From assembly GCA_029259455.1 (NCBI GenBank), contig JAPDIT010000040.1:1-40059 (forward strand): a stretch of DNA of 40,059 bases, given 5' to 3'. Positions 29,659 through 40,059 of the stretch are shown piece by piece. The notes beneath the pieces are model-generated. The model did not search any database and was not told where the DNA came from. It saw only the letters and a list, made by a program, of their open reading frames with translations. The DNA is from Archaeoglobi archaeon. Lineage in GTDB: Archaea; Halobacteriota; Archaeoglobi; Archaeoglobales; Archaeoglobaceae. Every line of letters begins with the position of its first letter. Positions within the stretch are counted from its first letter, which is position 1. A program made the position numbers and the translations under genes.

Positions 29659-30454
29659 AGACAATACAAAGACATTGGAGAGATTCCCAAACTAAGAAAG
29701 CGGGCAGACCCAAAAAGGAACTATCTGAAGAAGAAATAAAAGCCATAGAAGAAGCATACGAAGAATACAGATGTAATGCGATAGTCAAAAAATACTAAAA
29801 GAAAGAGAGAGGTTACAATATAAGCAAGAACAAAATCCATGAAGTGTTGAAGATGTTAGGCTATTCTAAGGAAGAAGAGAACAAAAGGAAGAGAAAGAGG
29901 TGGATACGCTACGAAAGAAGGCATTCCATAGTTTGTGGCATACAGACTGGCTTTTCTATAATGGAAAGTGGATGATGGCTTATTTAGATGATGCATCCCG
30001 TTTAGTAGTTGGTTACGGAGTATTTGACAATGCAACAGCAGAAAATGCCATACGAGTTTTGAGAGAAGCGATGGATAATTATGGCAAACCTGAATCCATA
30101 CTAACGGATAGAGGATCTAGTTCTATGCTTCAGCAGGAGAGAAGAGAGCAAAAGGGAAATCCAGGTTTGAGAAATTCCTTGAGGAGAATGGTATAAAGCA
30201 CATCGTCGCAAGAGTAAACCACCCACAAACGAATGGTAAGATCGAGAGATTCTACGGGACTCTTGAAGATAAAGCCAGATACTTTGAAACTCTGGATGAG
30301 TTTGTAGAGTGGTATAATTGCAAAGCTGACATGAGTCTCAATCTGGAGGAGTTGGAGACTCCTTATCAAGCATTTCTGAGAAAGCTCCCACCTGAGAGAG
30401 TTTTGGGTTACTGCTGGAGGTGGTTCATGGCGGGAATAATTTTAGGAAACTACA
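29659..30454 (+). mobile_element. IS481-family insertion sequence, degenerate, left end deleted
   Basis: Homologous to 1..577 from 29890 onward; upstream part encodes RQYKDIGEIPKL.. / GRPKKELSEEE. Several frameshifts; same ...GGAAACTACA right end; no left inverted repeat seen. Confidence 0.85.
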
Positions 30455-36480: not shown

Positions 36481-37398
36481 ATGAAAGACAGGTTCAGAAA
36501 CTGCATTTTGGGTCTGGCGGTTGGAGATGCTCTTGGAATGCCGGTAGAAGGTTTGTCACCTGAGAACATCAAGCAGCTTTACGGAGAGGTTAGGGATTTT
36601 CTGCCGTCTCCATATGGTGACCTGAAGGCTGGAGAGTGGACTGACGATACGGAGCAGATGATCGTTCTCGCTGAATCAATTCTCGAAACGGTTTACTTCA
36701 GCCCGGAAAACTTTGCCGAGAAGCTGAAAAAGTGGTTTGTGAAGACGAGCTGCAAGAGGATTGGGCCGAGCTCAACCAGAGCGATATCGAATTTGATGAG
36801 AGGTGTGTACTGGAGCAGGGCCGGGGTTTTCAGCGACACATGTGGTGCGGCAATGAGAGTCGCGCCCATAGGGCTTGTTTACCACTTCAGCCTGAATCTG
36901 GTGGAGAGGTATGCGGAGATCTCAGCCAGAGTTACGCACACGGGGACTGCGGCAATCGGCGGGGCTGTGGCTGTGGCAATAGCGATATCCTGCAACGTTC
37001 TCGACTTCAGCGATGAGGAAATGCTGGAGGAGGTTTTGAAAAGGGTTGAAGCTTACGACAACCTTCTCACGGAGAAAATAAAATTTGCCTACGAAATCTC
37101 CGACAGGGATGTGAGCTATGCTGTCGAAAAGCTTGGAAACAGCATTTTTGCACTTGATGTGGTTCCGATGGCGTTTTACTCGTACTTTTCGGGGAAGGAC
37201 TTCAAGGAATCGCTGATAAAGGCCGTTAATGCTGGTGGGGATGCTGATTCCATTGCTGCCGTGTGCGGCGCGATTAAGGGCGCGAGGGGCTTCAGCATTC
37301 CCGAAAGATGGCTGAAAAAGCTGAAAGACAGGGATTTTCTTGAGGAGCTGGCAATGAAGCTCTATGATCTCCACGTGAAGATAGTCAAGCTAACCTAA
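36481..37398 (+). CDS. ADP-ribosylglycohydrolase (DraG/ARH family)
   Basis: GLAVGDALG, WTDDTEQ, GAAMRVAP, VTH and GGDADS motifs. Confidence 0.92.
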   Translation: MKDRFRNCILGLAVGDALGMPVEGLSPENIKQLYGEVRDFLPSPYGDLKAGEWTDDTEQMIVLAESILETVYFSPENFAEKLKKWFVKTSCKRIGPSSTRAISNLMRGVYWSRAGVFSDTCGAAMRVAPIGLVYHFSLNLVERYAEISARVTHTGTAAIGGAVAVAIAISCNVLDFSDEEMLEEVLKRVEAYDNLLTEKIKFAYEISDRDVSYAVEKLGNSIFALDVVPMAFYSYFSGKDFKESLIKAVNAGGDADSIAAVCGAIKGARGFSIPERWLKKLKDRDFLEELAMKLYDLHVKIVKLT

Positions 37399-38336
37399 TC
37401 GATTTTGCATTCATCCGGACTTTTATCTTCCCTCAATCTCAAAAATACCGGCGCTCTGAGCTTACCATCCTCCGTGAATTCCAGAAACTCCACCTCGCAG
37501 ACGTACCTTGGCCTAACCCAGTGCACGTTCTTGGTTTCAATGTCAAAATGCGGTTTTTCAACTTCAATCTCCCTCAGCTTTTTCGAAAACCAAGTCAGGA
37601 ATTCGGAATCGAAGCCGGTTCCGACATTTCCGATGTGCCTTAATTTTCCGTCCTCGTAAACAGCAAGGACAAGGGAGCCGAAAGTCTCAACCCTCTCACC
37701 CTCTCCCTCTATCCAGCCAACTATAACGCAATCTAGGGTGTTTTTCTTCTTTATCTTTTTCCAGAGGTTGCTTCTCTTTCCTATCAAGTACTTTCCATCC
37801 TTTTTCTTCGCCACAATTCCCTCAAGCCCCATTTCCACCGCTCTCCTGTAGAGCTCCTCTCCGTTCCCTTCAATCCACTCTGCCATCACAACTCTCCCTC
37901 TGTTATGAAGAATTTCCGAAAGTATCCTCTTTCTCTCCATCAGCTCCAAATCCACGACCCAGCCGTCGCAGTAGAGGACGTCAAAAACAATGTAAACTGC
38001 AGGAATCGTCTTGCTGAGGATTTCAATCTTGAATTTGCTGTCAACATGCTCCCTCTTCTGCAGCAGCGGAAAGGATGGCTTCCCGCCCCTTATCACAACA
38101 ATCTCACCATCGAGAATTGCGTTTCTCTCAACCGCATCCAGAACCTTCAGCTCAGGGTAGCGGTAGGTGATGTCAAACAGCCTTCTGTTCTGCAGTCTCA
38201 GCCTTTTATTCTCTACATCAACAAAGGCTAAGCACCTTGTCCCGTCCCACTTTACCTCGTAAATGTGGTCATCGCTACTGAATGGTTTTGACCTCACCGC
38301 AAGCATCGGTTTGATTTTCTTCTCAAACCAGCTCAT
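37395..38336 (-). CDS. ATP-dependent DNA ligase, stand-alone LigD/LigC-type ligase domain (NHEJ)
   Basis: Motif I EVKWDG, then LDGEIV, VFDVL, EGIVAK, WKKIK and LRAPVF.RLREDK; 313 aa; translationally coupled to Ku. Confidence 0.93.
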   Translation of the reverse strand: MSWFEKKIKPMLAVRSKPFSSDDHIYEVKWDGTRCLAFVDVENKRLRLQNRRLFDITYRYPELKVLDAVERNAILDGEIVVIRGGKPSFPLLQKREHVDSKFKIEILSKTIPAVYIVFDVLYCDGWVVDLELMERKRILSEILHNRGRVVMAEWIEGNGEELYRRAVEMGLEGIVAKKKDGKYLIGKRSNLWKKIKKKNTLDCVIVGWIEGEGERVETFGSLVLAVYEDGKLRHIGNVGTGFDSEFLTWFSKKLREIEVEKPHFDIETKNVHWVRPRYVCEVEFLEFTEDGKLRAPVFLRLREDKSPDECKID

Positions 38337-39094
38337 TTGACTGCCTCAAGGCTCGCTCTAAGAGCATCTACTAACGACTTGACTTCTTCTACACCCTCAC
38401 TGACAACAATCTCTCTCCCAGAGAGCTTGGCTTCGATGAGCTGTGTAAGTGCCTCCTTGTATTCATCTCTGAACTCTTCCAGCTTGAGTGGCTTCTTCAT
38501 CGCAAGAATCAGTTTCTTGGCAAGCTCCAGCTCTTCTTCAGTTATGTCCGCCACAACTCCCCAGCCAGGGAGCTCCAAAGGGCTTCTAACTTCATCAATG
38601 TAGTGCAGCTGAGCAAGAACTATTCCCCCATCGTAGGGGCGTAAGGCAACAAGGTTCTCCTTCCCCCGCATGGTCACCTTTCCAATGCCCATGCTGTTGG
38701 TCTCCTCCATTGCCTTCTTGAGCAGGTAGTATGCTTTCTCACCGCCCTTGTCGGGCGAGATATAGTAAAAGCTACCATAGTATATCAGCCCAAGCTCAGC
38801 GGGGTCAAAAAATTGCCTTATCTCTATACTTTTCGTCGATTTTAGAGGAATCTTTTCGAAGTCTTCATCAGTGAGAATAACGTATTCATTTTTCGATATT
38901 TCGTATCCCTTGACGATTTCTCCATCCGAAACCTCTTTTCCGCACTTCTCGCAGACCTTCCTGTATCTGATCCTTCCGCCATCAGCTGAGTGGAGGAGAT
39001 GGAATTTAATCTCTTTCTGTGTGGTGGCTTTGTAAACCTTCACGGGTATGTTCACGAGGCCAAAGGATATGCTACCTTTCCATGTCGCCCTCAT
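38333..39094 (-). CDS. ku: Prokaryotic Ku DNA end-binding protein
   Basis: RATWKGSISFGLVNIPVK, IVKGYE, AYYLL and FRDEY motifs; minimal core without a basic C-terminal tail. Confidence 0.95.
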   Translation of the reverse strand: MRATWKGSISFGLVNIPVKVYKATTQKEIKFHLLHSADGGRIRYRKVCEKCGKEVSDGEIVKGYEISKNEYVILTDEDFEKIPLKSTKSIEIRQFFDPAELGLIYYGSFYYISPDKGGEKAYYLLKKAMEETNSMGIGKVTMRGKENLVALRPYDGGIVLAQLHYIDEVRSPLELPGWGVVADITEEELELAKKLILAMKKPLKLEEFRDEYKEALTQLIEAKLSGREIVVSEGVEEVKSLVDALRASLEAVK

Positions 39095-39151: not shown

Positions 39152-39400
39152 GTGATGGTGTGTACGATTGACGTAATAGCTTTCCACAGAGATGAGATAA
39201 TGACAAACGGCAAACTTGACCCGATTTTAAAGGAGAAAATTGCGATAAAAGTTTCTACGGTAAATAAGTGCAATCCGTGCTATGTTATAAAAAGAAGCTT
39301 GAAATGGCTGGTCATTCTGAGAATGCGGAAGGTGAAAAGGAAAGAGTAGCTTTGCGGTTTGCTGAACTTGCTGCAATGGACAGGGGCAAGGTAAGCGAAG
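39152..39400 (+). pseudogene. Carboxymuconolactone decarboxylase / AhpD-family pseudogene
   Basis: LDPILKEKIAIKVSTVNKCNPCY (CxxC), frameshift at ~39286, then KERVALRFA; truncated by IS sequence. Confidence 0.72.
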
Positions 39401-39745
39401 GAGACGAAAAATGGGAGCTTCTATCAAAAATCATTGATAAGCTCGAATCAAGGGAAACCAAGAAAGCTTTAGCAAGGAATGGAATAACGCCAGTAAACAA
39501 GGCAATAAAAATGCTTAAGGATTTCTGGCTATGTTCTTTGAATTAGATGTGTCTTATGCAGTTAGCGAGGTAAACAAGCGTTTAGAACTGAGAAAGTTCT
39601 TGAGGATAGAGGAAGTTAAACTAAGGGCAGTCTACTCATTCATGGCAGAATTCGAAGCAGACCAATTTATAAACTTTGTATTCTCAATTCTTAACGCTAA
39701 TTCAAAGAAAAGTCGAAGTAGGCCATCCATTTTAATACTGGATTG
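39401..39745 (+). mobile_element. N-terminal fragment of an archaeal IS5/IS4-type DDE transposase, frameshifted and interrupted at its first catalytic Asp
   Basis: KWELLSKII..LARNGITP..AMFFELDVSYAVSE..ELRKFL..ILILD resembles euryarchaeal IS5-like transposases (recognised from memory). Frameshift at ~39520. Left boundary approximate. Confidence 0.6.
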
Positions 39746-39758
39746 ACCACATGTGGAA

Positions 39759-39845
39759 CCCTTTTCAGCAGACCGATGTAAAAGCCTGCAGTTAGTTCGG
39801 TCCATGCATCTAGAATGCGGTGGATTGACTTAACAGGCAAAAAGG
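39759..39845 (+). ncRNA. Candidate bridge/seek guide RNA of the IS110 element
   Basis: Stem GCCT(GCA)GTTAG / TTAAC-AGGC encloses a ~9+10 nt internal loop capped by hairpin TGCAT-CTAGA-ATGCG. One loop strand (TGGATTGAC) equals the insertion junction. Confidence 0.6.
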
Positions 39846-39856
39846 ATGGTGGAAGT

Positions 39857-40059
39857 GTGGTGGAAGCACGAATAGGTGGTTATCCGGTCTGCATCGGATT
39901 GGATGTGCACAAAAGGTATTCGTATGTAGCTGTAGTTGACGAGCTGGGAGAAATAGTAGAGGAAAAAAGAATAGAAAACACAAAGGAATCTCTACAAAAA
40001 TTCGCATCAAAATACAAAGCTAAAGCTGTAATAGAGGCAACATCCAACTACAGGTTCAT
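39857..40059 (+). CDS. IS110-family DEDD transposase/recombinase, 5' part
   Basis: Open frame VVEARIGGYPVCIGLDVHKRYSYVAVVDELGEIVEEKRIENT...AVIEATSNYRF contains the first two DEDD residues (GLDVHK, IEAT). GTG start follows GGTGG; an in-frame ATG at 39815 is an alternative. Not in the ORF track because it has no stop in the window. Confidence 0.88.
   Translation, partial: MVEARIGGYPVCIGLDVHKRYSYVAVVDELGEIVEEKRIENTKESLQKFASKYKAKAVIEATSNYRF

What the first reader, a model, noticed from the sequence alone, without database searches (positions are those of the whole stretch)
39739..40059. IS110 recombinase with a structured leader that copies its own insertion junction: candidate archaeal bridge/seek RNA
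Seen: an unannotated ORF with IS110 DEDD motifs (IGLDVHK, AVIEATS), preceded by ~110 nt of non-coding DNA. By eye this folds into an outer stem (39784-39795 with 39830-39838), a large internal loop (TTCGGTCCA 39796-39804 opposite GTGGATTGAC 39820-39829) and a cap hairpin (39805-39819), plus a smaller 5' hairpin (39761-39784). The loop 9-mer TGGATTGAC (39821-39829) is identical to the sequence spanning the element's left junction (39739-39747). Established: IS110-family elements (IS621 bridge RNA, IS110/IS1111 seekRNA) encode a non-coding RNA whose internal loops pair with target and donor DNA around a 2-nt core. Inference: this is the target-binding loop of a compact guide RNA from a probably thermophilic archaeon, with core TG (39744-39745). 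The left-target guide is on the 3' side of the loop, mirrored relative to IS621. The extra AC matches the first two bases of the element, as a handshake-type pairing would.
Basis: partly seen in the sequence, partly recalled or inferred. Interest (0 to 1): 0.92.

Follow-up and report, generated by a model that had tools for sequence, protein, structure and literature searches.

The report
Archaeal bridge RNA overlapping recombinase start
This is the left end of an archaeal jumping gene whose leader likely folds into a 125-base guide RNA: one loop copies the landing site, here inside another jumping gene, and a second loop copies the element's own ends and overlaps the predicted start codon of its enzyme, an unusual layout of a known RNA-guided recombination system.

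Summary
Confirmed and extended. The 9-mer copy is real, and across 33 left junctions of this Archaeoglobaceae IS110-family element the loop follows each copy's own left flank (140/165 bases; shuffled 63). Across nine related archaeal lineages all four guide strands and the AC/AT handshake track their own target and ends. The 'mirror' is the published IS1111 guide order, and the element has IS1111-type subterminal repeats. Unusual: the RNA sits at the left end (homologues in related lineages sit at the right end), and the donor loop contains the only conserved in-frame start (GTG 39857/39860). This guide aims at the first catalytic-Asp region of a DDE transposase; another aims at IS481 ends. 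Against: right-arm matching within the family is not significant; no RNA, circle or activity was observed; the matching full copy is frameshifted. Nearest named element: ISHvo10 of Haloferax volcanii (47%). The scan noted similar archaeal elements on other DNA (e1-8142954, e1-8316952). New variant of a known kind.

The parts
39398..39743 (+). 5'-truncated, frameshifted remnant of the host element's DDE_Tnp_1 (IS4/IS5-like) transposase, ending in ...ILD; 39739-39743 is the left target arm
   Evidence: Intact 343-365 aa copies L062-L072 continue ILD-W-TD through one TG; PF01609 91.5 bits; identity to L037 starts at 39398
39744..39745 (+). TG core (first two bases of the host Trp codon)
   Evidence: 36 of 37 left junctions end in TG; empty sites have one TG; filled copies L051, L056 have TG on the right too
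39746..39750 (+). first five bases of the element (right donor arm, ACCAC)
   Evidence: flank/element boundary; read by the handshake AC and by the 4-nt guide at 39849-39852
39751..39763 (+). left subterminal inverted repeat (13 bp; 7 bp in from the end counting the core, partner 3 bp from the right end)
   Evidence: L001 14 bp, L056 13 bp; coordinates
39768..39892 (+). predicted bridge RNA, closed by helix 39768-39774/39886-39892
   Evidence: z -3.68; 94.8% of cells paired in 25 sequences, 5 of 32 pairs with two-sided change; no Rfam match
39784..39838 (+). target-binding loop: 5' strand 39796-39804 complementary to core plus right target; cap 39805-39820; 3' strand 39821-39827 identical to left target plus core; handshake AC 39828-39829
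   Evidence: nine lineages; second handshake weak
39857..40059 (+). IS110-family recombinase, 5' part, cut by the contig end; likely start GTG 39857 or 39860, inside the donor loop

Best explanation
The stretch is the left end of an IS110-family insertion sequence whose leader likely encodes a ~125-nt two-loop bridge RNA that is predicted to guide the recombinase to insert the element at a TG core, here inside another element's DDE transposase gene. Shown in sequence: element ends, 13-14 bp subterminal repeats, a conserved fold, a first loop whose strands match the left and right target arms, a second loop whose strands match the element's two ends, a handshake dinucleotide that follows the element's first two bases, and a start codon inside the second loop. 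Inferred by analogy with IS621 and IS1111 elements: the element would form a circle joining its right end to its left end; a TATA-like box 40-47 nt before the right end would then drive a transcript across the junction; recombinase dimers would bind each loop, pair them with target and donor DNA and exchange strands at TG, helped by handshake pairing. Loop order is the IS1111 one, so the cassette likely moved between element ends without changing polarity. Because the donor loop holds the start codon, one transcript likely cannot be both bound guide and translated message, which would give negative autoregulation; this last step is the least supported.
For: Left arm: 140 of 165 bases match in 33 of 37 left junctions (4 with deleted loops dropped), shuffled 63 +/- 8.5, 0 of 50,000; by 11 guide types 3.8 vs 1.7 of 5, 0 of 200,000. 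Nine lineages, guides read from covariance-model columns, ends from the inverted repeats: left target 4.12 vs 1.45 of 5 (n 8; 3/200,000), right target 5.0 vs 2.85 of 7 (16/200,000), donor 4-mer 3.22 vs 1.49 of 4 (0/200,000), donor end plus core 6.78 vs 5.33 of 7 (120/200,000), handshake 1.89 vs 1.40 of 2 (1,524/200,000). The window's 5' loop strand pairs with 6-7 (7-8 with G-U) of 9 bases at 10 empty host sites found in 11 loci. Structure. The model built from left-end RNAs also finds RNAs at the right end of related elements (L118 21.7 bits, L015 18.2, L016 17.1, L125, L111, L123 weaker). All 6 of 32 leaders with a frame open for 300+ codons have their only in-frame start inside the donor loop. 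TATA-like box in 18 of 22 right ends (pattern chosen after seeing the sequences, no control). Published mechanism: PMC11208160, PMC11208158, PMC11187229.
Against: Within the Archaeoglobi family the right arm is not significantly matched: 3.62 vs 3.21 of 7 in 13 full copies, 13,359/100,000; 4 of 33 left flanks match 2 or fewer of 5. The second handshake is weak (1.0 vs 0.58, 9,428/200,000). The donor 4-mer does not follow the ACCAC/ACAAC change within the family (L004 row). The model hit 13 of 29 relatives at E up to 1 and missed L104, L106-L108, L018, L124, L128; ISHvo10 gave only a weak partial hit (8.7 bits). Most structure pairs never vary or vary on one side, and RNAalifold did not predict the donor loop's closing helix. 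Lineages are kin, so the permutation counts overstate. Computed accessibility of the start region hardly changes with context (0.44-0.50 unpaired), so folding alone gives no support for translational control. The full copy at this site (L037) is frameshifted and its right junction lacks the core T.
Confidence: 0.86

Rival explanations
1. Only the first loop is a guide (a seekRNA-like target-only RNA of about 55-80 nt); the element's ends are recognised by protein through the subterminal repeats, and the second hairpin is a relic or merely part of the coding start.
For: Short seekRNAs holding the target matches were the most abundant form and sufficient for ISEc11 (PMC11187229 passages). Within the family the donor 4-mer does not follow the ACC/ACA change; 9 of 32 leaders carry a 2-nt deletion in the loop's closing helix.
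Against: Both strands of the second loop track the element's own ends across nine lineages (0 and 120 of 200,000), including lineages where the loop is non-coding; its inner stem has two-sided changes; none of the 9 deletion variants shows a frame open for 300 codons (many are cut by contig ends).
Confidence: 0.09
2. The match is a DNA-level product: the loop was copied from, or recombined with, the flank (gene conversion or a duplicated junction), with no RNA involved.
For: No transcript was seen: only contigs were available, and RNA runs X12 and X15 give no ends or strand. The left arm matches far better than the right arm within the family.
Against: The same guide stands beside many different flanks that share only the motif; the 5' strand is the reverse complement, not a copy, of the right arm; stems covary as RNA pairs; the handshake bases match the element, not the target.
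Confidence: 0.03
3. Chance 9-mer next to an ordinary IS110 end, or coding sequence translated from ATG 39815.
Against: Covariation over 33 junctions; ATG at that place in only 3 of 32 leaders, with in-frame stops 21-26 codons upstream of the conserved Cys in L001, L007, L009, L038, L047.
Confidence: 0.02

Closest known systems
IS1111-family seekRNA elements (ISEc11, ISKpn4, ISPa11, ISPst6; PMC11187229, passages and section 6 read, supplements searched)
   Same: Subterminal repeats of 11-14 bp with 7 bp left and 3 bp right extensions; top-strand complement 5' of the bottom-strand match; GL-P----SG motif; 330-350 aa.
   Different: RNA in the left end, overlapping the start codon, instead of downstream of the gene; protein only about 22-27% identical to such enterobacterial elements in the plasmid search and not shown to group with IS5075/IS884; archaeal host.
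IS621 / ISCro4 bridge RNA (PMC11208160, PMC11208158, PMC13626964 passages; PDB 8wt6, 9t56)
   Same: Left-end RNA with a target loop then a donor loop, 2-nt core, 9-nt first guide strand, shorter second strand followed by a handshake dinucleotide that pairs after strand exchange.
   Different: Att sites have the opposite polarity relative to the gene; long subterminal repeats; about 125 nt closed by a long-range helix instead of 177 nt with a 5' stem-loop; core TG; donor loop is also coding.
ISHvo10 of Haloferax volcanii (with ISH18, ISHvo9; record NC_013966.1)
   Same: 47% identical recombinase; same right end (..CATAGG|TG), long subterminal repeats 7/3; by eye its left end carries the same two loops matching its own flanks and ends; haloarchaeal left-end elements are the sister group (100/99).
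   Different: ISHvo10 has long non-coding DNA at both ends (noted in PMC11187229 without a guide assignment in the parts read) and its RNA ends about 30 nt before the ATG; here the ends are about 110 and 50 nt and the RNA runs into the gene.
IS110-family elements that target other mobile elements: ISEc21 (second Asp codon of IS3 transposases), IS4321/IS5075 (Tn21 inverted repeats; title seen in reference lists), ISMtsp17 (IS1111 member with upstream non-coding region)
   Same: Targets a catalytic-residue region or a terminal repeat of another element; precedent for an IS1111-type element with an upstream region.
   Different: One family here uses at least 11 guide types, aimed at a DDE_Tnp_1 gene and at IS481-like ends among others.

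Membership tests
IS110 family (broad) | DEDD RuvC domain plus Transposase_20 domain with catalytic Ser | tested here: met
   L001 (83% identical over the window's first 78 aa): NF033542 264.9 bits, PF01548 84.1, PF02371 87.6; GLCPSIKQSG motif. The window holds only the first 68 codons; the matching full copy L037 is frameshifted.
IS110 family (broad) | No target duplication beyond a 2-nt core | tested here: met
   Empty host sites have one TG, filled ones TG on both sides; a minority of right junctions deviate (C55, C73, L010, L037).
IS110 family (broad) | Circular intermediate with a junction promoter | tested here: inconclusive
   No right-end to left-end joint in contigs of 8 runs; contigs drop rare forms. 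TATA-like box in 18 of 22 right ends, uncontrolled.
bridge RNA systems | Target loop with two strands matching both target arms and core | tested here: met
   Left arm; right arm met across nine lineages and at empty host sites, not significant within the family.
bridge RNA systems | Donor loop with two strands matching both element ends | tested here: met
   (0 and 120 of 200,000)
bridge RNA systems | Handshake dinucleotides | tested here: inconclusive
   Target-loop handshake follows the element's first two bases in 8 of 9 lineages; donor-loop handshake weak.
bridge RNA systems | RNA expressed, bound by the recombinase and needed for recombination | not testable with these tools
   Only assembled contigs of RNA runs were available.
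IS1111 group | Subterminal inverted repeats 11-13 bp, 7 bp left and 3 bp right extensions | tested here: met
   definition from PMC11187229
IS1111 group | Top-strand complement 5' of the bottom-strand match | tested here: met
   39796-39804 precedes 39821-39827
IS1111 group | Long non-coding region downstream of the gene | tested here: not met
   Right end about 50 nt, RNA in the left end; published exceptions exist.
IS1111 group | Transposase groups with IS1111 over its full length | tested here: inconclusive
   Tree of 41 proteins leaves the archaeal clade unresolved against IS5075/IS884 and ISEc21/ISEc32; IS1111 itself and ISEc11 were not in the tree (one search found no record).
IS110 group proper (IS621, ISEc21) | Left-end RNA | tested here: met
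IS110 group proper (IS621, ISEc21) | No long subterminal repeats; bottom-strand match 5' of the top-strand match | tested here: not met
   13-14 bp repeats and reversed order

The most novel reading that the evidence does not exclude
In an archaeal clade of IS110-family elements the bridge RNA is a movable cassette that has jumped between the two ends of the element with its polarity intact, and in the compact Archaeoglobi branch it has fused with the start of the recombinase gene, so that the donor loop is at once guide, ribosome entry site and first codons: a built-in switch by which the recombinase shuts off its own translation when it loads its guide. The family uses natural reprogramming of this 125-nt guide to parasitise other insertion sequences, and is a candidate heat-stable programmable recombinase with a testable relative in Haloferax volcanii.
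Probability: 0.35. Interest if true: 0.75.

Novelty: new variant of a known kind. Interest (0 to 1): 0.52.

Why it matters
Bridge recombinases are a leading class of programmable genome-rewriting tools, and my searches of the paper library found no archaeal bridge RNA described. This family gives a compact two-loop guide with at least 11 natural programmes, from organisms of hydrothermal settings (runs), so it may work hot. It bears on an open point: Durrant et al. proposed that the RNA moved between element ends in the ancestor of the IS110 and IS1111 groups; here homologous RNAs stand at either end within one clade at 40-50% protein identity, with unchanged polarity, which separates RNA position from guide order. 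It assigns the guide of ISHvo10, whose two long ends were ambiguous, making the system testable in a genetic model archaeon. The overlap with the start codon suggests how guide and message made from one promoter may be balanced.

Tried and rejected
Rfam: no match at E up to 1. Bacterial promoter/terminator scan: nothing above shuffles, wrong promoter type. Reads: contigs of 8 runs showed no circle joint and no RNA ends; RNA runs X12 and X15 (one sample) hold related copies but cannot show expression. The automatic 7/3 repeat finder mis-registered elements with a 1-nt indel in a repeat; ends were re-anchored on the repeats' outer triplet. mis-anchored 3 of 34 left junctions; redone. The LT5 column for empty sites is off by one and was not used. 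The right-junction list contains about 8 chance hits and was read by eye, not counted. Idea that the TAGGG-type guide targets the left terminal repeat of the DDE_Tnp_1 family: empty ends match the guide (L063, L067, L068, L070, L072), but no host ORF was found beside any of 5 left or 3 right flanks: unconfirmed. Direction and number of RNA moves: monophyly of the right-end lineages is not rejected (AU p 0.12), so neither is determined. Translational control by folding: no computed support. ATG 39815 as start: rejected as a family feature. No structure or complex prediction was run; it would not bear on the RNA. Five of 46 intended proteins (L019, L037, L116, L121, L122) were left out of the tree because no intact frame was extracted. 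Look-up of earlier notes on look-alike stretches found none.

Full report
Observation. The window is contig C1 of an incomplete genome (879 kb, 82 contigs, 55% complete) whose nearest relatives are titled Archaeoglobus or Archaeoglobi. TGGATTGAC stands at 39739-39747 and 39821-39829; about 0.0008 copies are expected in the 153 nt after the junction. The open ORF at the contig end is an IS110-family recombinase (full-length relative L001). Extending to 39767-39893 gives z -3.68; 4 of 5 family members folded had z below -3, one -1.18.

Element anatomy. The genome holds further left ends (C3, C55) and right ends (C4, C28, C55, C73) broken at contig ends. Metagenome contig L037 is the same insertion (99.4% over 662 nt), 1190 bp long. 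The element begins TG|ACCAC, then a 13-14 bp repeat; it ends with the inverted repeat, three bases and TG. That is the 7 bp/3 bp geometry given for IS1111 elements (PMC11187229). 36 of 37 left junctions end in TG; intact host genes carry one TG. L037's recombinase frame is broken, so the copy in the window is probably inactive in cis.

Target loop. With loci from genome and metagenome searches, 37 distinct left junctions had a loop, 33 with both strands intact. The five bases before the loop's TG match the five before the junction's TG at 140 of 165 positions (20 perfect, 9 one mismatch, 4 with two or fewer matches); shuffled mean 63, 0 of 50,000. Collapsed into 11 guide types: 3.8 against 1.7, 0 of 200,000. 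The 5' strand is the reverse complement of core plus right arm: the window's strand pairs with 6-7 of 9 bases (7-8 with G-U) at all 10 empty host sites found in 11 loci. But among 13 full copies of the family the right arm is not significantly matched (3.62 vs 3.21 of 7; 13,359/100,000): several copies match on the left only or have shifted right junctions. One-sided 'half-match' insertion is reported for IS621 (bioRxiv 2026.08.31.748434, passages) and top-strand insertion for CazIS110 (bioRxiv 2025.10.25.684509, abstract); trans action of other copies' guides and mis-assembly of repeats are other possible causes (inference).

Downstream lies a second hairpin with an internal loop, 39844-39885. 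Its 3' strand (39872-39878) equals the last five bases of the element plus core; four bases of its 5' strand (39849-39852) are complementary to element bases 2-5. On an alignment of 25 family RNAs my structure has 94.8% of cells paired and 5 of 32 pairs with two-sided changes, against 23-41% paired for slid controls; RNAalifold recovers the outer helix, the target hairpin and the donor inner stem but not the donor closing helix. A covariance model finds homologues in 13 of 29 more distant elements. For nine lineages that the model aligned and that had both ends, guides were read from model columns and ends from the repeats: all four guide strands and the target-loop handshake match their own element better than others' (figures under best explanation). 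The donor-loop handshake is weak. Kinship among lineages makes these counts optimistic; the right-arm score allowed the better of two registers for all pairings.

The mirror. Read on the bottom strand, the RNA has IS621's layout: a 9-nt first strand, a shorter second strand and a handshake pair (PMC11208158). So the loops are ordinary; the att sites are inverted relative to the gene.

Position of the RNA. Relatives at 40-55% protein identity carry the homologous RNA either at the left end (haloarchaeal-type L104-L109, L135; L117, L121, L122, L127) or at the right end (L015 group including this genome's C14 element, L118 group, L111, L123), some with the same right end and donor strand. In the tree the Archaeoglobi and haloarchaeal left-end elements form a clade (100/99) inside a larger, mostly archaeal clade (95/93) with the right-end lineages. 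At least one move is needed; direction and number are not fixed (AU p 0.12), and the relation to IS5075 or ISEc21 is unresolved. The nearest named element is ISHvo10 (47%); by eye its left end has both loops matching its own flanks and ends, though the model scores it weakly. Durrant et al. proposed such a move at the root of the two groups (section 12); ISMtsp17 is a published IS1111 member with an upstream region and ISHvo10 one with two long ends.

Overlap with the gene. Relatives start with Met three residues before the first G-x-D; here that codon is GTC, part of the closing helix. Of 32 leaders, the 6 whose frame stays open for 300+ codons have their only in-frame start 10-11 codons before the conserved Cys, inside the donor loop's inner stem (GTG, or ATG in L047); ATG 39815 has a counterpart in 3 of 32. 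In the window these are GTG 39857 and 39860, with a purine-rich GGTGG a few bases upstream (likeness to a Shine-Dalgarno site is recalled, not tested). So about 12 codons lie inside the RNA. ISHvo10's RNA ends before its ATG. Autoregulation is my inference; computed accessibility gave no support. I found no mention of such an overlap in the passages searched; this is not a full reading of those papers.

What it targets. The window's guide type inserts in the Trp codon after ILD of a DDE_Tnp_1 transposase: 7 of 8 such left flanks hit that protein, intact copies exist. That this Asp is the first catalytic one rests on the recalled D-x-T motif and the start of the Pfam match at residue 126. The AATTT guide type abuts an IS481-like ORF in 3 of 10 distinct flanks (NF033577 197.6 bits, under the 224 cut-off). 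L054's guide sits at the 3' end of a DDE_Tnp_1 relative. Precedents: ISEc21, IS4321/IS5075.

Literature seen. PMC11208160: passages, section 12, supplement search (one file cut, one unread; Supplementary Table 5 not seen and may already predict a left-end RNA for ISHvo10/ISH18). PMC11187229: passages, section 6, supplement search. PMC11208158, PMC13626964, bioRxiv 2025.05.14.653916, 2024.06.21.599552, 2026.08.31.748434: passages. bioRxiv 2025.10.25.684509: abstract and passages. Searches for archaeal, Haloferax or Archaeoglobus bridge RNAs returned none; subscription papers are not covered. Earlier notes of this scan describe similar archaeal elements elsewhere; I did not test them.

Verdict. 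A real, well-supported bridge RNA of a known system, in a new configuration: IS1111-type ends and guide order, left-end position, overlap with the start codon, archaeal host. No experiment backs it yet. New variant of a known kind; interest 0.52.

Noticed in passing
window 37395-39094 (- strand): Ku (PF02735) and an ATP-dependent DNA ligase (PF01068, PF04679) side by side, an NHEJ-like gene pair, 650 bp from the insertion. Whether such repair causes the 1-2 nt variation at right junctions is untested.
   Followed up: no
G000 C55 start, C73 start, L010, L037, L105: Right junctions that lose, gain or change a base at the core (GG, AG, TA, G) while 36 of 37 left junctions are precise; may reflect one-strand insertion and host repair.
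   Followed up: partly
L084, L092, L098 (genome G052): Left end with the full two-loop RNA followed by non-recombinase sequence, with a right end in the same locus: possible non-autonomous guide-carrying elements.
   Followed up: no
G000 C14 12114-13082 (L018): A second IS110-family element in the same genome, 46-49% identical, with a similar left terminus but its RNA at the right end.
   Followed up: partly
window 39398 and G000 C75, C76, C42: The host DDE element is cut at its left in the window but complete in L037; C75 joins a host left end directly to the inside of the recombinase gene: deletion derivatives or assembly joins.
   Followed up: no
window 39152-39349: Short ORF with a weak carboxymuconolactone decarboxylase match (PF02627), apparently interrupted by the host element.
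   Followed up: no
L003, L041, L042, L043, L049, L050, L051, L056, L058: A 2-nt deletion in the donor loop's closing helix shifts the frame so that the only in-frame start is the GTG holding the loop's core bases.
   Followed up: partly
L107-L109, L145, L106: Haloarchaeal-type RNAs have a long G+C-rich hairpin inserted in the donor loop's cap, and these elements keep a further 210-240 nt non-coding right end of unknown role.
   Followed up: no
window about 556-577 and 30433-30454: Two similar stretches resembling IS481-type terminal repeats, with a third on C52.
   Followed up: no
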